Below are positions 26,388 through 55,793 of a stretch of DNA of 64,000 nucleotides, in pieces. Origin of the DNA: a virus. The stretch's first letter is position 1. Every line of letters starts with the position of its first letter. The translations under genes were made by a program, and so were the position numbers. The notes below the pieces were generated by a model, which saw only the letters and a program-made list of their open reading frames with translations, searched no databases and was not told where the DNA came from. The stretch is taken from positions 9,110-73,109 of the IMG/VR virus record IMGVR_UViG_3300029893_000003; one strand, written 5' to 3'.

Positions 26388-26442
26388 AAGGCTGATGCCT
26401 CTTCTTTTTCTATCAAAATTGTCGTGTGACATATCCTGCACG

Positions 26443-27681
26443 GTGACTGCTCCCCACGGCTAAAGCCGGGGGCTTCTAGGACCGGAGTCCAGGCTCGCCA
26501 GCCCGCGAGCCAAAATGTTCAGAGATGCATTGAGATCGCGGTCCAGTTTCAGGCCGCAGTAAGGACAGTCGTGGACACGCACACTCAAGTCTTTCGGAAC
26601 CACCGCGCCGCAGCCGGAGCATTCTTGCGTTGTGCCTCTGGGGTTAACGCGCAGCACAGCACGACCGGCACTTTCAGCCTTGTACGTGGTGAACTGCACG
26701 AACTGGCCCCAGGCCACGTCCGCGATATTCCGGTTGACAACCCGGTTTCCGTTGGACTGCATGTCCGCGATGTCCAACTTCTCAAAGACGATCAGGCCGA
26801 AGCGGTTGACGAGCTTGCGGCTCTCCTGGTGCGCGAAGTCGGCGCGCCGGTTGGTGGCGCGCTGGTAGGCATGGTTGAGCGCGCGCAGCACCTTGCGGCG
26901 CTCCGGCGAGCCTTTAGCGAACTGTTCTTTCTTGCGCTGCAAGCGGGCGATGTCCGCCGCATCGCGTTTCATCCAGCACTGGCGCGGGATACTGTCGCCG
27001 GTACTCAGCATGGCGAACGTCTTCAGGCCGAGATCCACGCCCACCACTTCAGGCGACGGGGGCAGAGGCGCGGCGTCTACTTCGCACGAAAAGCAGGCGT
27101 ACCAGTTGCCTACGCTATCGCGCCGGATGATGACTGTTTTGGGTGTGCCTTCCAGGGGGCGATGCAGCTTGATTTTCACGGCTCCGATTTTCGAGAGCGT
27201 GAGCCGGTTACCGTCCAACTTCACCCCATTACCACACTGCGGATAGGTGAAACTGTCGTACCAGCCACGTCCCTTGAAGCGCGGGTAGCCGGGCTTCTCA
27301 CCTGCCTTGACGCGGCGAAAGAATGCCTGGAACGCCAGATCGACGCGTGTGCACGCTTCTTGAAGCGACTGCGAAAAGGCGTTATTGAGAAATGGCTGCT
27401 CGGCTTTCCAGCCGGGGATCAGCTTAATCGTATCGAAGCGCGTCAGCGTTTCGCGGTTAATGTCCCAGGCATCGCGGCGCACTTCAAGCGTCGTGTTGTA
27501 AACCCACCGACAAGCATCCAATGCGCGCAGCAAGGCGGTGCGTTGGGCAGAAGTAGGAAAGAGGCGGTACTTGTAGGTCAATCGCATAGCCCGATTATAC
27601 CATTTATGCTACAGGTTCACAAACATATGGCGCACCTTATATCCCCCTGCCTTCAGGCAGAGGTTTTACGGCGCTTTTCCG
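26443..27681 (-). mobile_element. IS200/IS605-family (IS1341-type, tnpB-only) element 1
   Basis: LE hairpin CCTCTGCCTGAAGGCAGGGGG after TTTAT; RE GAAGCCCCCGGCTTTAGCCGTGGGGAGCAGTCAC; higher GC than flanks; no tnpA. Confidence 0.85.
26460..27587 (-). CDS. tnpB: RNA-guided endonuclease TnpB
   Basis: YKYRLFPT HTH, VGVDLGLK RuvC-I, VFEKL, TTQECSGCG zinc finger, DRDLNASLNI. Confidence 0.95.
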   Translation of the reverse strand: MRLTYKYRLFPTSAQRTALLRALDACRWVYNTTLEVRRDAWDINRETLTRFDTIKLIPGWKAEQPFLNNAFSQSLQEACTRVDLAFQAFFRRVKAGEKPGYPRFKGRGWYDSFTYPQCGNGVKLDGNRLTLSKIGAVKIKLHRPLEGTPKTVIIRRDSVGNWYACFSCEVDAAPLPPSPEVVGVDLGLKTFAMLSTGDSIPRQCWMKRDAADIARLQRKKEQFAKGSPERRKVLRALNHAYQRATNRRADFAHQESRKLVNRFGLIVFEKLDIADMQSNGNRVVNRNIADVAWGQFVQFTTYKAESAGRAVLRVNPRGTTQECSGCGAVVPKDLSVRVHDCPYCGLKLDRDLNASLNILARGLASLDSGPRSPRL

Positions 27682-52738: not shown

Positions 52739-53037
52739 GAACCTATGAAGAGAATAGACTAATTGCAATCAATATGGCAGGTATCATTTGGTTGCGAACG
52801 TTATTAAGTGACGTAGAATCTGATACAGATTTAATAAATAAAATGTTCAAAGATTTTCTAAAAGGTTTTTATTTATCGCTAGCCACAAGCGAAACATTGG
52901 ATATTGCCGAAGAACGTTTGGACGGGGTTTTTCAGTATATTGAATTAATGGGCGTAGATGAATCTGTACTTGAGGGGATGCAGAAAACCCTTAACCAGCT
53001 ACAAGAATGGCTAACCATACCGGAACTAGATGAATAG
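52735..53037 (+). CDS. Hypothetical protein
   Basis: Coupled to Fic. Confidence 0.6.
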   Translation: MRTYEENRLIAINMAGIIWLRTLLSDVESDTDLINKMFKDFLKGFYLSLATSETLDIAEERLDGVFQYIELMGVDESVLEGMQKTLNQLQEWLTIPELDE

Positions 53038-53335
53038 TGTGAGTGATTTTCTTTACTACTTATTACTTATTTTAGACTTCCTTATGCCAAAACGAACTGA
53101 CAACTACCAGGAATATCTACGATCTTCTAGGTGGAGAGGCATAAGGAAAAGGGCCTTGGAACGGGCGGGTTATCGGTGTCAGCTATGTAACTCGCCCACC
53201 AGACTACAGGTACACCATCGGACGTATGATCGACTAGGAAATGAACGGCTTGATGATCTTATTGTGCTGTGTCAAAAATGTCATACAGCGTTTCATGTAC
53301 ACAGGAAATTGCACAAACCTAGAAAAAGGGCTTGA
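53030..53335 (+). CDS. HNH endonuclease
   Basis: YLRSSRW...CQLC...LQVHH...LIVLCQKCHTAFH. Confidence 0.85.
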   Translation: MNSVSDFLYYLLLILDFLMPKRTDNYQEYLRSSRWRGIRKRALERAGYRCQLCNSPTRLQVHHRTYDRLGNERLDDLIVLCQKCHTAFHVHRKLHKPRKRA

Positions 53336-53360
53336 CAAAGGTTTTGAGGTATGCTATACT
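53332..53360 (+). promoter_or_regulatory. Sigma70 promoter for the ~350-nt ncRNA
   Basis: TTGACA-17-TATACT with extended -10 TG. Confidence 0.85.
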
Positions 53361-53367
53361 GTGTACA

Positions 53368-53716
53368 GTGAGACAGAAAGCTGCGTGGGTGGCGGCTAGG
53401 AAACCTTCAGTCGAATTGAGACGAGTTTTATTGTTAGTCCTTAATGCCGCCACCGACGAAGTTGAAGGGCTTGAAGTAGAGGCAACCAAACATTCATAGC
53501 GTACACTCTCCTTTTGGTTAGCCGATGAGAAAACTTTATCCTTAAAGGTTGCCTCTACTTCAAGCCTTTGCGACGGGCTTTGACCTAGACAATAGGAGTC
53601 CCCCTTTGTGCAGAGGGGAGTGCCGTAGGAGCGCAGGTAAAGGTTGCACAGCCATCCTACCTCTTGATGGTGGGCAGGAGTAAATATAATTTCATACTTA
53701 TATCCCACCTTTTTTT
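53368..53716 (+). ncRNA. Candidate structured RNA with two pseudoknots, class unassigned
   Basis: Bounded by the promoter and a GGTGGG/CCCACC-U8 terminator; stems GGTGGCGGC/GCCGCCACC and a ~23-bp stem around GGCTTGAAGTAGAGGCAACC; pseudoknot candidates TATTGT/ACAATA and TGTGCA/TGCACA. Confidence 0.65.
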
Positions 53717-53718
53717 TC

Positions 53719-53747
53719 TTGACAAGTTAAATGAAGTGTGTTAAAGT
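53719..53747 (+). promoter_or_regulatory. Sigma70 promoter for the Y RNA-Ro60 operon
   Basis: TTGACA-17-TAAAGT with extended -10 TG. Confidence 0.75.
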
Positions 53748-53749
53748 AA

Positions 53750-53818
53750 GGCTAGCGAACCGAAAAGGCGTGGTTATCCATGATCGAATACTCCACCCTT
53801 GTTTACTTGTTCGCTAAA
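53750..53818 (+). ncRNA. Y RNA-like RNA 1
   Basis: TAGCGAAC-CGA...CTT-GTTCGCTA, matching the Ro60-binding stem geometry (C-CGA / CUU-G) of Y RNAs. Confidence 0.7.
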
Positions 53819-53822
53819 ACAT

Positions 53823-53905
53823 GCGTGTCCAGGACTGGCAGGCGTTGGCCCTAAGCGAAGTTCAAGCCAACATCACCTGCGGGGGTTCAACTCCCTCGAC
53901 ACGCT
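53823..53905 (+). ncRNA. Atypical tRNA-like element (acceptor and T-arm, rudimentary D region, elongated anticodon-position arm)
   Basis: GCGTGTC/GACACGC acceptor; GGGGG-TTCAACT-CCCTC T-arm; GCAGG/CCTGC plus GTTGGC/GCCAAC arm. Confidence 0.6.
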
Positions 53906-53906
53906 C

Positions 53907-53979
53907 TATCGAGCCGAGGGGTTCAGGGTTACCTACATAGCGAATGTAAACCAATTCCCTACCCGCACCTTGCTCGATA
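53907..53979 (+). ncRNA. Y RNA-like RNA 2
   Basis: TATCGAGC-CGA...CTT-GCTCGATA stem with the same motif. Confidence 0.7.
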
Positions 53980-53992
53980 AAAACTAGTAATG

Positions 53993-54114
53993 ATGTGAGC
54001 CGAAGGAACTTGGTTATCGACTTGTAATCGACGGTTGCGGGTTCGAATCCCGTCCCTGCGGGGTAGCTTAATGTGGAAAAGCAGTAAAAAGCCAATTCCG
54101 TCCCTTGCTCACGT
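53993..54114 (+). ncRNA. yrlA: YrlA-type Y RNA with a permuted tRNA-like module
   Basis: GTGAGC-CGA...CTT-GCTCAC Ro stem enclosing TCGA-CTTGTAA-TCGA arm, T-arm GCGGG-TTCGAAT-CCCGT, loop-closed acceptor CCC-TGC-GGG and D-arm-like TAGCTTAATGTGGAAAAGC; adjacent to the Ro60 gene. Confidence 0.8.
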
Positions 54115-54227
54115 AATGTATGGACCGTTTTTGTCCGACTAGATAGGCGAGATAACAGAGTGGTTGGTTCCTGTTATTACTATCTGTGTCGGGCACATCG
54201 TCCGACACTTTTCATAAGGAGAATCTA

Positions 54228-55793
54228 ATGGATTACGGAAAGTATTTTAACACCCGCAAGACCCCTCAGAGCCAACCCCTTCCCAATCAAGTGCAGAATA
54301 ACGCTGGTGGTTATTCTTTTCAGGTCGATAAGTGGATGTTGCTGGATCGCTTCCTGATCCTGGGTACAGAGGGTGGATCGTATTACGTGGGGGAACAAGC
54401 TCTCACCGTTGAAAATGCGCGCGCTGCCTACGAATGTATTCAGGAAGACGGTATTCGTGTTGTGGATCGCGTAGTAGAAATTTCTGTTCAGGGACGTGCA
54501 GCTAAGAATGATCCTGCTCTTTATGTTCTAGCTATGGCAGCAGGGACAGGTAATCTAGCCACGCGACGGTACGCTTTATCATATCTTTCTGAGGTAGCGC
54601 GTACTGGAACACATCTATTTACCTTTGTTGATTACGTGCAGCAGTTTCGTGGGTGGGGTCGTGCCCTGAAAAATGCAGTTGGTAACTGGTATCTGGATCG
54701 CCCGATTGAGAAGTTGGCGTATCAGGCTATCAAGTACCGCAACCGTAAGGGCTGGACTCACGCTGATGTGTTGCGTAAGGCACATCCAAAAGCCCACAAC
54801 CAGCTTCAAAATGATCTGTTCAAGTGGATTGTAGATGGTGACGTGCCTAGTATCCAACTGGTACGGGCATTTGAGGCCGCTAAGACCGCTTCGGAAGATG
54901 ATCTTGTAGCTTTGATTGCACAGTATGATCTTCCTCGCGAAGCCTTGCCTACTGAAGCCCTGAACAGCCCGAAGGTATGGCGTTCTTTGTTGGTTCACAT
55001 GCCGTTGATGGCCCTGGTTCGTAACCTGGGTAAGCTGAGTAATGTTGGCGTGGTCGCTCCTGGTCGTTGGGTGGAAATTGAACACACGGTTGGGATGCTG
55101 ACAAACCGCCAAAAAATTCAGCAGTCTCGTATTCACCCTATTCAGGTACTTGCTGCGCTGACTACCTATTCTCAGGGACGGGGCGTACGTGGCAGTTTAA
55201 CGTGGGATGTGGTACCGGAGATTGTTGCAGCACTAAACACAACCTATGAAATGGCGTTTGATAACGTAGAGCCGAGCGGAAAAAAGACACTGGTCGCGTT
55301 GGACGTGTCCTCGTCAATGACATGGGGCGAAGTGTCTGGTGTTCCGGGCTTGACTCCGCGTGTGGCGGCGGCTGCAATGGCAATGATGACCATCAAGACC
55401 GAACCATATACCCTGCCGTTGGCGTTTTCTACTGAGCCTACGCCGATGAATCTGAATAAGTCTATGTCGCTGAATGAAGTAATCCGTGAGATGGAGCGTA
55501 TTCGGTTTGGTGGTACGGATTGCGCCTTGCCGATGCTATGGGCACTAGAGAACAAGGCTGAAGTTGATCTATTTGTGGTGTATACAGATAGCGAAACGTG
55601 GTACGGAAAGATTCATCCTGTTCAGGCATTGCAAATGTATCGTGAGCAGATGGGCATTCCCGCAAAGTTGGCTGTTGTAGGGATGCTGGCAAATAAGTTT
55701 TCGATTGCCGATCCGAACGATCCTGGTATGCTAGATTTTGTGGGCTTTGATACATCTGTTCCACAGGCACTAGCCGAATTTGCTAAGATGTAG
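54228..55793 (+). CDS. rsr: Ro60/Rsr TROVE-domain RNA-binding protein with vWA domain
   Basis: NNAGGYSF, LDRFLILGTEGGSYY, KYRNRKGWTHADVLRKAHP, MPLMALVRNLGKL, MIDAS DVSSSM, GGTDCALPM, YTDSETW, DPNDPGMLDFVGFD. Confidence 0.95.
   Translation: MDYGKYFNTRKTPQSQPLPNQVQNNAGGYSFQVDKWMLLDRFLILGTEGGSYYVGEQALTVENARAAYECIQEDGIRVVDRVVEISVQGRAAKNDPALYVLAMAAGTGNLATRRYALSYLSEVARTGTHLFTFVDYVQQFRGWGRALKNAVGNWYLDRPIEKLAYQAIKYRNRKGWTHADVLRKAHPKAHNQLQNDLFKWIVDGDVPSIQLVRAFEAAKTASEDDLVALIAQYDLPREALPTEALNSPKVWRSLLVHMPLMALVRNLGKLSNVGVVAPGRWVEIEHTVGMLTNRQKIQQSRIHPIQVLAALTTYSQGRGVRGSLTWDVVPEIVAALNTTYEMAFDNVEPSGKKTLVALDVSSSMTWGEVSGVPGLTPRVAAAAMAMMTIKTEPYTLPLAFSTEPTPMNLNKSMSLNEVIREMERIRFGGTDCALPMLWALENKAEVDLFVVYTDSETWYGKIHPVQALQMYREQMGIPAKLAVVGMLANKFSIADPNDPGMLDFVGFDTSVPQALAEFAKM

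What the first reader, a model, noticed from the sequence alone, without database searches (positions are those of the whole stretch)
53368..53716. Stand-alone pseudoknotted RNA of about 350 nt just upstream of the Y RNA-Ro60 operon
Seen: its own near-consensus promoter (53332-53360) and a U8 terminator (about 53669-53716) with no RBS-led plus-strand ORF between them. Stems include CTGCGT/GCGCAG, GGTGGCGGC/GCCGCCACC, a near-perfect ~23-bp stem and TCCCC/GGGGA. Two pseudoknot pairings are TATTGTTAG with CTAGACAATA and loop TGTGCA with TGCACA. It matches no class I recognise: it lacks the RNase P conserved regions and tmRNA ends. Inference: a possible Ro60 client, a ribozyme, or a decoy for dsRNA or structured-RNA sensing defences.
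Basis: partly seen in the sequence, partly recalled or inferred. Interest (0 to 1): 0.75.

Follow-up and report, generated by a model that had tools for sequence, protein, structure and literature searches.

The report
Orphan structured phage RNA beside Ro60
An uncultured phage carries a real, non-coding, strongly folded RNA gene of about 350 bases with its own promoter, just ahead of its Y RNA-Ro60 genes; it matches no known RNA family, occurs only in this one phage lineage, and its job is still unknown.

Summary
The flagged unit is real. It has a near-consensus extended -10 promoter (53332-53360), about 350 nt with no conserved ORF on either strand, and a hairpin plus U-run (53669-53717).

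- **Relatives:** fifteen full-length relatives from other samples are at least 95% identical.
- **Antisense ORF:** it is broken by 2-nt and 1-nt indels, and its substitutions show no third-position bias.
- **Fold:** the fold statistic (z -5.7) comes from a 9-12-bp GC stem enclosing a 77-nt 5' domain and a 27-bp stalk carrying a 59-nt open, CU-rich loop.
- **3' region:** the "pseudoknotted" part folds no better than shuffles. Both proposed pseudoknots are at chance level. One pseudoknot and the proposed closing stem meet uncompensated changes. There is no covariation, because the relatives are too close.
- **Family searches:** no Rfam match, no canonical Y-RNA handle (the three neighbouring Y RNAs have one), no RT or tmRNA features, and no homolog beside 82 other phage Ro60 genes.
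- **Link to the Y array:** in two relatives the second promoter has lost its -10 element, so the Y RNAs and Ro60 there must be read through from this RNA.
- **Insertion:** some relatives carry a TnpB right-end fragment in the apical loop.

Verdict: a new orphan ncRNA that heads the Y RNA-Ro60 cluster. Its function is inferred, not shown.

The parts
53332..53360 (+). Promoter P1: TTGACA, 17-nt spacer, TATACT, with TG upstream (extended -10). Predicted start near 53367.
   Evidence: 11 of 12 matches, TG present. Invariant -35 in 15 relatives. The only changes are 53354 C>T (keeps TGn) and 53357 T>C in one relative.
53367..53717 (+). The non-coding RNA, about 350 nt, from predicted start to the end of the U-run.
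   Evidence: MFE -131.9 kcal/mol, z -5.7. No Rfam hit. 0.3-3.5% substitutions against 1.6-7.5% in the adjacent HNH gene in the same relatives.
53384..53458 (+). 5' domain. A GC-rich stem GGUGGCGGC/GCCGCCACC (53388-96 with 53446-54) is extended by CGU/ACG and encloses about 50 nt.
   Evidence: z -4.8 on its own. The stem is invariant. Only 2 variable sites in 77 nt, both outside the stem: 53387 in a bulge and 53426 in the weak inner fold.
53455..53461 (+). GACGAAG, a match to the Ro60-contact motif GNCGAA(N0-1)G, at the junction of the 5' domain and the stalk.
   Evidence: Motif definition from PMC4201824. The match is at chance level: 30 hits on the plus strand of the 64-kb window, about 0.17 expected per 350 nt.
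53461..53574 (+). Long hairpin. A 27-bp stalk (53461-87 with 53547-74, one bulged G at 53570) carries a 59-nt apical loop.
   Evidence: The only change in the arms is G-U to G-C (53567). The stalk is long enough to be an RNase III substrate (inference).
53488..53546 (+). Apical loop, essentially unstructured, with the CU-rich tract CUCUCCUUUU (53506-15). It is the least constrained part.
   Evidence: z -0.1. It holds 5 of the variable sites seen across, a 2-nt CU deletion in 7 relatives, and the insertion site.
53539..53541 (+). Site where some relatives carry a 75-nt insertion (54 nt in L009). The insertion is a TnpB-element right-end fragment.
   Evidence: The insertion is 96% identical to window 26517-26442 (minus strand), the last 75 nt of the tnpB element at 26460-27587.
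53575..53668 (+). Conserved 3' region with small hairpins: GGGCU/AGUCC, CCUA/UAGG, UCCCC/GGGGA and GUAGGA/UCCUAC.
   Evidence: z +0.35, so the fold is not above chance. Variable sites lie in predicted loops or linkers (53590-94, 53621-24, 53639).
53669..53717 (+). Terminator-like hairpin (6 GC-rich pairs closing a 29-nt AU-rich loop) followed by a U-run.
   Evidence: -13.3 kcal/mol, z -3.1. The U-run varies among relatives. An alternative CCUACC/GGUGGG pairing costs only 3.7 kcal/mol.
53719..53747 (+). Promoter P2 of the Y RNA-Ro60 unit: TTGACA, 17-nt spacer, TAAAGT, with TG upstream.
   Evidence: It is conserved in most relatives, but its -10 element is removed by an 8-nt deletion in L012 and L105.
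53753..54114 (+). Array of three Y RNAs (53753-53816, 53907-53979, 53993-54114), each with an 8-bp stem, then CGAR ... CUU, then the other strand of the stem. A tRNA-like spacer lies between them.
   Evidence: handle scan. (partial YrlA match, E 5.7e-5, at 54033-54082). Compensatory G-C to A-U change in Y RNA 1.
54228..55793 (+). Ro60 gene (TROVE plus Ro60-type vWA domains).
   Evidence: PF05731 at 4e-38, PF25045 at 4e-67.
53319..53708 (-). Antisense ORF of 129 aa. It is not a gene.
   Evidence: No Pfam hit. The only database 'homologs' are ORFs called on the same RNA locus. Frameshifts in 9 relatives and an 8:6:2 codon-position spread of substitutions.

Best explanation
This is a genuine gene for a structured non-coding RNA of a new, very narrowly distributed family. 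It is the first unit of the phage's RNA cluster: this RNA, three Y RNAs, a tRNA-like spacer, Ro60 and tRNA-Met.

Shown. The host-type promoter P1 points into about 350 nt that no strand needs as protein. Sequence change avoids the two strong helices. The unit ends at a hairpin plus U-run whose strength varies. In relatives that have lost the next promoter, the unit must be co-transcribed with the Y RNAs and Ro60.

Inferred. The transcript folds into a stable stem-enclosed 5' domain, a 27-bp stalk presenting a 59-nt open CU-rich loop, and a sequence-conserved 3' region. The stalk is a textbook RNase III substrate. The primary transcript is therefore probably cut into a 5' domain, a loop-derived small RNA and a 3' piece. 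The products act in trans as stable RNAs, co-expressed with, and probably serving, the phage's Ro60/Y RNA module. They do not act as a Y RNA, a ribozyme or a protein-coding message.
For: - **Transcription signals:** promoter with 11 of 12 consensus matches plus TG, conserved in relatives. Terminator-like hairpin with a U-run.
- **Not coding:** no conserved ORF on either strand.
- **Fold:** z -5.7 for the whole unit and -4.8 for the 5' domain.
- **Substitution pattern:** 19 variable sites, of which only 6 lie in MFE-paired positions although 65% of positions are paired (binomial P 0.003). The two changes inside well-supported helices are G-U to G-C and A-U to G-U.
- **Rate:** the RNA changes about half as fast as the neighbouring HNH gene in 11 of 11 comparisons, and more slowly than the Y array (3.4-3.7% against 7.9-8.4%).
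- **Co-transcription:** the -10 element of P2 is deleted in two independent assemblies, which also carry the shorter UUUUAUU tract.
- **Tolerated changes:** a 75-nt or 54-nt insertion and a 2-nt deletion are both tolerated in the apical loop only.
- **DNA-level reading:** the GC-skew turning point is elsewhere, which argues against an origin of replication.
Against: - No expression data.
- No compensatory base change in any helix, because all relatives are at least 95% identical.
- The antisense strand folds as well (z -5.5), so the energy evidence fits a DNA inverted repeat too.
- The 3' region is not thermodynamically special.
- The link to Ro60 rests on adjacency within a single lineage. 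Nothing similar sits beside 82 other viral Ro60 genes.
- RNase III processing and action in trans are inferences only.
- Relatives carrying a foreign 75-nt insertion could mean the RNA is dispensable.
Confidence: 0.55

Rival explanations
1. It is a cis-acting leader or attenuator of the Y RNA-Ro60 operon. P1 transcripts either stop at the 53669-53717 hairpin or read through, depending on an alternative fold. The long structured part acts as the sensor, or as a put-like element that modifies the RNA polymerase.
For: - The -10 element of P2 is lost in L012 and L105, so read-through must feed the Y RNAs and Ro60 there.
- The U-run is variable and often interrupted.
- Segments GUAGGA, UCCUACC, GGUGGG and CCCACC can pair 1:2, 2:3 or 3:4. 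The anti-terminator form is only 3.7 kcal/mol above the MFE.
Against: - P2 is a good promoter and is conserved in most relatives, so the downstream genes do not normally depend on P1.
- No riboswitch, T-box or other cis-regulatory family matches.
- Alternative pairings of this size are easy to find.
- The 3' region shows no thermodynamic signal.
Confidence: 0.2
2. It is an oversized Y-like RNA: a direct Ro60 ligand bound through the GACGAAG motif, with the usual tRNA-like module replaced by other domains.
For: - It lies next to three Y RNAs and Ro60.
- GACGAAG fits the motif GNCGAA(N0-1)G.
- A weak handle exists: CCACCG-a-CGAA ... CUUga-UGGUGG.
- Another Ro60 phage locus (L043:2489-2811) has a canonical 8-bp handle spanning 323 nt, so large Y-like RNAs may exist. 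Earlier scan notes report the same, but these are unchecked.
Against: - The canonical handle (an 8-bp stem directly flanked by CGAR and CUU) is present in all three neighbouring Y RNAs and absent here. The weak version is expected 0.25 times per 350 nt by chance, and it competes with the 5' stem and the terminator.
- The motif match is at chance level.
- There is no tRNA-like module.
- No homolog sits beside 82 other Ro60 genes.
Confidence: 0.12
3. It is a DNA-level element, not an RNA. The 27-bp and 9-bp inverted repeats would serve as a protein-binding, recombination or replication site that happens to lie behind a promoter.
For: - Both strands fold equally well by z-score.
- The region attracts mobile DNA: HNH upstream, HNH_3 in L004, and the TnpB right-end insertion.
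Against: - A strong promoter points into the unit, and the U-run exists on the plus strand only.
- The plus strand is 11 kcal/mol more stable.
- The polymorphism in the stalk is G-U to G-C, which is neutral in plus-strand RNA but a mismatch in DNA or the minus strand.
- The cumulative GC-skew minimum lies at window 30-35 kb.
- There is no integrase or replication-initiator gene next to it.
Confidence: 0.07
4. The antisense ORF 53319-53708 (129 aa) encodes a small protein, and the 'RNA structure' is incidental.
For: The ORF is open in the window. Gene callers predicted it in five protein clusters, and the 75-nt and 54-nt insertions happen to be in frame.
Against: - A 2-nt deletion occurs in 7 relatives and a 1-nt insertion in 2.
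- Substitutions fall 8:6:2 on codon positions 1, 2 and 3.
- There is no Pfam family and no homolog outside this locus among 5.8 billion proteins.
- No minus-strand promoter lies downstream of it.
- Its GTG start lies inside the terminator stem.
Confidence: 0.02
5. It is a self-cleaving ribozyme, or an RNA decoy against host dsRNA-sensing or structured-RNA-sensing defences.
For: The only support is a long perfect duplex and conserved sequence. The phage context is full of RNA mimics: a mini-tmRNA, Y RNAs and a tRNA-like element (unchecked notes).
Against: - No ribozyme family matches at E up to 10.
- The candidate pseudoknotted core is not supported.
- No defence target is known, and none can be tested here.
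Confidence: 0.04

Closest known systems
Bacterial and phage Y RNAs (YrlA/YrlB, Yrn1/2; phiLo Yrl1/Yrl2) with Ro60/Rsr (PMC4201824, PMC12135203)
   Same: Structured non-coding RNA encoded on the same strand just upstream of Ro60. It is co-transcribed with Ro60 in some relatives, contains a GNCGAAG word, and carries a long hairpin with a pyrimidine-rich loop, as described for YrlB-type RNAs.
   Different: It has no terminal stem carrying the CGAR/CUU handle that the three adjacent Y RNAs have. It has no tRNA-like module. It is 3-4 times longer. It is absent next to 82 other viral Ro60 genes.
Orphan large structured phage RNAs such as ROOL and GOLLD (Rfam RF03087, RF01998)
   Same: Phage-borne and gene-sized. 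It lies among tRNA-like genes, is sequence-conserved, and has no known function.
   Different: No match to either model. It is smaller (350 nt against 580-800 nt). Much of it is a plain stalk and an open loop rather than an ornate multi-junction fold. It is known from one lineage only, with no covariation support.
RNase III processing hairpins of phage early transcripts (the T7 R sites) and the short promoter-proximal lambda PR' '6S' transcript. This comparison is from my own knowledge.
   Same: A strong host-type promoter is followed by a long duplex, and/or a short terminated transcript lies ahead of downstream genes. Read-through can join it to them.
   Different: Those elements are short and sit inside mRNAs. 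Here a further conserved 77-nt 5' domain and a 94-nt 3' region flank the stalk. Neither processing nor antitermination has been shown.
TnpB/IscB guide RNAs (omega RNA; HEARO, RF02033)
   Same: Some relatives carry the last 75 nt of a TnpB element's right end, in sense orientation, inside this RNA. An HNH gene lies directly upstream.
   Different: The RNA itself has no similarity to the phage's tnpB ends and no HEARO match. The HNH protein is a 101-aa stand-alone enzyme, not IscB. The insertion is a polymorphic passenger.

Membership tests
Y RNA (Ro60 partner RNA) | Encoded close to Ro60 on the same strand | tested here: met
   The RNA ends 511 nt upstream of the Ro60 start, with the Y array in between.
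Y RNA (Ro60 partner RNA) | Terminal stem from the 5' and 3' ends, with a GNCGAA/CGAA bulge facing CUU (the Ro60-binding handle) | tested here: not met
   The handle scan finds 8-bp handles for Y1, Y2 and Y3. In this RNA it finds only a gapped 6-bp version, expected by chance about 0.25 times.
Y RNA (YrlA type) | tRNA-like module (T-arm, D-arm mimic) | tested here: not met
   No tRNA or YrlA match inside 53366-53716 at E up to 10. ARAGORN finds nothing there.
Y RNA (Ro60 partner RNA) | Physical binding to Ro60 | not testable with these tools
   This needs a pull-down or a gel shift.
Any Rfam 15 family (ribozymes, riboswitches, RNase P, tmRNA, 6S, ROOL, GOLLD, HEARO, T-box) | Covariance-model match | tested here: not met
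   No hit at gathering score. At E up to 10 the only hits are plant-miRNA-like hits on the long hairpin. The insertion-bearing allele also gives nothing.
tmRNA | tRNA-like ends and a tag reading frame | tested here: not met
   ARAGORN finds none. No tag-like short ORF in any of the three frames.
Retron or DRT template RNA | Adjacent reverse transcriptase | tested here: not met
   No RVT_1 match anywhere in the 82-kb phage record.
Independently transcribed bacterial-type sRNA gene | Own sigma-70-type promoter, no ORF, and a hairpin plus U-run at the end | tested here: met
Structured RNA supported by covariation | Compensatory base changes in helices | tested here: inconclusive
   0 of 108 and 0 of 68 pairs show double changes. 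There are only 19 variable sites in 15 near-identical relatives. Substitutions do avoid helices (P 0.003).
Transcription attenuator or riboswitch | Mutually exclusive terminator and anti-terminator folds coupled to a sensor | tested here: inconclusive
   An alternative pairing exists at +3.7 kcal/mol. No sensor family was identified.

The most novel reading that the evidence does not exclude
The RNA is a new kind of large Ro60-associated RNA. It would be a phage-made scaffold or protected client that is co-expressed with three Y RNAs, lacks their handle, and, after RNase III processing, redirects the Ro60/Y RNA/host exonuclease machinery or delivers a CU-rich small RNA. That would be the first defined non-Y RNA component of a bacterial-type Ro60 system.
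Probability: 0.12. Interest if true: 0.75.

Novelty: new member of a known kind. Interest (0 to 1): 0.45.

Why it matters
What phage Ro60 does, and which RNAs it handles besides Y RNAs, is an open question. A conserved, separately promoted 350-nt RNA that can be co-transcribed with the Y RNAs and Ro60 is a concrete candidate to test in pull-downs.

It also adds to the growing set of gene-sized structured phage RNAs without a function. In addition, it shows a TnpB right-end fragment landing inside an RNA gene without destroying the rest of it.

Its narrow distribution and the lack of covariation limit what can be learned without experiments.

Tried and rejected
- **Known RNA families:** Rfam at gathering score and at E up to 10, on the window and on an insertion-bearing allele, gave nothing.
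- **Public sequence collections:** BLAST against phage and plasmid collections gave no match.
- **Exact-word scans:** IMG/VR gave none. JGI metagenomes gave three, all near-identical. GTDB genomes gave one 20-mer hit in a Nitrosomonas MAG.
- **The Nitrosomonas hit:** it extends to 27 of 28 nt inside a czcC/TolC-like gene. 121 Nitrosomonas genomes show no other similarity to the phage. I treat it as probable chance, not as a host or a target.
- **Finding relatives:** Ro60-based and orf100-based locus searches found no close relatives in IMG/VR. Relatives came from protein clusters of the spurious antisense ORF and of orf100.
- **Covariance models:** Two domain models found nothing in 82 other Ro60 loci. 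nhmmer found nothing in two others.
- **Antisense targets in the phage genome:** only 10-12-nt chance matches.
- **Other readings rejected:** retron or DRT (no RT), RtcB-linked repair operon (none), tmRNA tag (none), origin of replication (skew minimum elsewhere).

Full report
**Context.** The window is part of an 82-kb IMG/VR phage record. Around the finding, all on the plus strand, lie:
- a HAD-like ORF, a Fic gene, a 100-aa ORF and a 101-aa HNH gene (53030-53335);
- the flagged stretch;
- a second promoter, then three Y RNAs with a tRNA-like spacer;
- Ro60 (TROVE plus Ro60-type vWA, 54228-55793) and tRNA-Met.

**The observation.** The promoter scan gives TTGACA-17-TATACT with an upstream TG at 53332-53360, 11 of 12 matches. 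This is the best promoter-like site in the 4 kb scanned. A start near 53367 follows from it. The unit ends in GGUGGG/CCCACC (53669-74 with 53704-09) closing a 29-nt AU-rich loop, followed by U8 (-13.3 kcal/mol, z -3.1). The simple terminator scan missed it only because of its large loop.

The long one is 27 bp with one bulge. The whole unit folds at -131.9 kcal/mol, with z -5.7 against dinucleotide shuffles. No Rfam family matches at gathering score, or even at E up to 10.

**Where the fold signal comes from.** I folded the parts separately.

| Part | Coordinates | z-score |
|---|---|---|
| 5' domain | 53384-53460 | -4.8 |
| Apical loop of the stalk | 53488-53546 | -0.1 |
| 3' region | 53575-53668 | +0.35 |
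| Terminator | 53669-53717 | -3.1 |

The signal is therefore the GC-rich stem enclosing the 5' domain plus the 27-bp stalk. The antisense strand scores z -5.5, so folding energy alone cannot choose the strand. The promoter, the one-sided U-run and an 11 kcal/mol advantage choose the plus strand.

**Relatives.** Nucleotide searches of phage and plasmid collections and of IMG/VR found nothing. Searching the spurious antisense ORF and the upstream 100-aa protein against 5.8 billion proteins recovered contigs of the same phage lineage from about 19 samples. One metagenome word scan added two more. A 97%-identical Ro60 gave a contig that starts inside the hairpin.

Fifteen relatives cover the whole RNA. 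All are at least 95% identical in it. The family is therefore real but very narrow.

**Coding test.** It fails as a gene for these reasons:
- a 2-nt deletion (53506-07) in seven relatives and a 1-nt insertion near 53590 in two shift its frame;
- its 16 substitutions fall 8:6:2 on codon positions 1, 2 and 3;
- it has no Pfam family and no homolog outside this locus.

The plus-strand ORFs either start upstream of the transcription start or are broken by the same indels.

**Structure test.** There is no compensatory double change in any helix, because there are too few differences. Still, of 19 variable sites only 6 fall in MFE-paired positions although 65% of positions are paired (P 0.003). Of those six:
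- two lie inside well-supported helices and are G-U to G-C (53567, in the stalk) and A-U to G-U (53594);
- three break only weak inner hairpins of the MFE;
- one is an alignment artefact next to the insertion in L009.

- CTGCGT/GCGCAG takes an uncompensated G-to-A change in seven of the 14 full-length relatives (three of the six).
- Pseudoknot 1 (TATTGTTAG with CTAGACAATA) takes an uncompensated A-to-U change. The competing local hairpin CCUA-loop-UAGG places all that variation, including a length change, in its loop.
- Pseudoknot 2 (UGUGCA with UGCACA) is invariant and so uninformative, although the A-to-U change at 53639 fits it better than the MFE alternative.
- Shuffled sequences contain about 15 six-bp helices each, and 72% contain a 9-bp helix with one bulge. 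These pairings are not above chance.

**Constraint.** In 11 of 11 relatives the RNA has fewer substitutions per site (0.3-3.5%) than the adjacent intact HNH gene (1.6-7.5%). It has fewer than the Y array (7.9-8.4% against 3.4-3.7%) and far fewer than third codon positions of Fic and the 100-aa ORF. Phage mosaicism blurs this, but the direction is consistent.

**Link to the Y RNA-Ro60 unit.** A handle scan ([stem]-CGAR ... CUU-[stem]) recovers three Y RNAs with 8-bp stems at 53753-53816, 53907-53979 and 53993-54114. The third overlaps a partial YrlA match. Y RNA 1 shows a G-C to A-U compensatory change among the same relatives.

The 350-nt RNA has no such handle. It has only a gapped 6-bp version at chance frequency, and a GACGAAG word at chance frequency (motif from PMC4201824). 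Two covariance models, one of the 5' domain and one of the 3' region, find nothing within 4 kb of 82 other viral Ro60 genes.

In L012 and L105, which are independent assemblies, an 8-nt deletion removes the -10 element of promoter P2. These alleles also carry the weaker UUUUAUU tract. There the Y RNAs and Ro60 must be transcribed from P1 through this RNA. The unit is thus the head of the cluster rather than strictly stand-alone.

**Mobile DNA in the loop.** L007, L008, L014 and L004 carry 75 extra nucleotides (L009 carries 54) between 53539 and 53541. These are 96% identical to the last 75 nt of the tnpB element at 26460-27587 of the same phage, in sense orientation and ending in the element's right end. 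The rest of the RNA is unchanged in these alleles (one substitution in 344). The apical loop is therefore tolerant, or the insertion is recent.

**Mechanism.**

*Shown:* a promoter-led, non-coding, constrained unit with two strong helices, an open loop, a leaky end, and occasional obligatory co-transcription with the Y RNAs and Ro60.

*Inferred:* a 27-bp perfect duplex is a standard RNase III substrate. The transcript is probably cut into a stable 5' domain, a loop-derived CU-rich small RNA and a 3' piece, and these act in trans alongside the Ro60/Y RNA module.

*Rivals:*
- a cis leader or attenuator, since an alternative CCUACC/GGUGGG pairing costs 3.7 kcal/mol;
- an oversized Y-like RNA. L043:2489-2811 in another Ro60 phage has a canonical handle spanning 323 nt, and earlier scan notes report two large RNAs beside Ro60 (unchecked);
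- a DNA-level repeat, though the skew minimum is at 30-35 kb, not here;
- a ribozyme or a decoy, for which there is no evidence.

Retron or DRT, RtcB-operon and tmRNA readings fail.

**Limits.** Because all relatives are near-identical, the fold of the 3' region and any tertiary contact remain open.

**Verdict.** This is a real orphan structured RNA gene of a new, narrowly distributed family. It is of moderate interest, mainly as a testable candidate partner of phage Ro60.

Noticed in passing
window 53539-53541; L007:339-413 (minus strand), L014:1760-1832, L004:1-36, L009; source copy at window 26442-26517 (minus strand): A 75-nt fragment (54 nt in L009) is polymorphically inserted in the RNA's apical loop, in sense orientation. 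It is the last 75 nt of a tnpB element, including its right end ...GCAG(T/C)CAC. The flank CTTTAAAGGTTGCCTCTACT therefore sits in the guide position of an omega-RNA remnant. The phage has three TnpB genes.
   Followed up: partly
window 53733-53740 (the -10 element of promoter P2); L012 and L105: An 8-nt deletion (GTGTTAAA) removes the -10 element of the Y RNA-Ro60 promoter in two independent assemblies. The Y RNAs and Ro60 there depend on read-through from the upstream RNA's promoter.
   Followed up: partly
L004:260-997, equivalent to window 53765-53993: In the relative whose Ro60 is 97% identical, an HNH_3 homing-endonuclease gene (166 aa, L004:490-990) replaces most of Y RNA 1, the tRNA-like spacer and Y RNA 2. 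The Y array is therefore variable in copy number.
   Followed up: no
window 53768 and 53797 (Y RNA 1 upper stem): There is a compensatory G-C to A-U change among the relatives: AAAAGGCGUGG...CCACCCUU against AAAAGACGUGG...CCACUCUU. This supports the fold of Y RNA 1.
   Followed up: partly
window 53546-53572; L017:7907-7934 (Nitrosomonas MAG JAJFJI010000213.1): The 3' arm of the stalk matches 27 of 28 nt inside a czcC/TolC-like outer-membrane efflux gene, so that arm is antisense to the gene's mRNA. Weaker matches occur in two other Nitrosomonas species. There is no other phage similarity in 121 Nitrosomonas genomes. One exact 20-mer hit is expected by chance in 596 Gb, so this is probably coincidence.
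   Followed up: partly
L043:2489-2811 (IMGVR_UViG_3300035698_035366): Upstream of another viral Ro60 gene, a canonical Y handle (GCUGGAU-CGAG ... CUU-GUUUAGCG, 8 bp) encloses 323 nt. This is a candidate very large Y-like RNA. It is unrelated in sequence to the RNA studied here.
   Followed up: no
window 53506-53515 and 54216-54222: The CU-rich tract of the apical loop (UCUCCUU) is complementary to the Ro60 ribosome-binding site AAGGAGA over 7 bp. It would be equally complementary to any strong Shine-Dalgarno sequence, so this is not specific.
   Followed up: no
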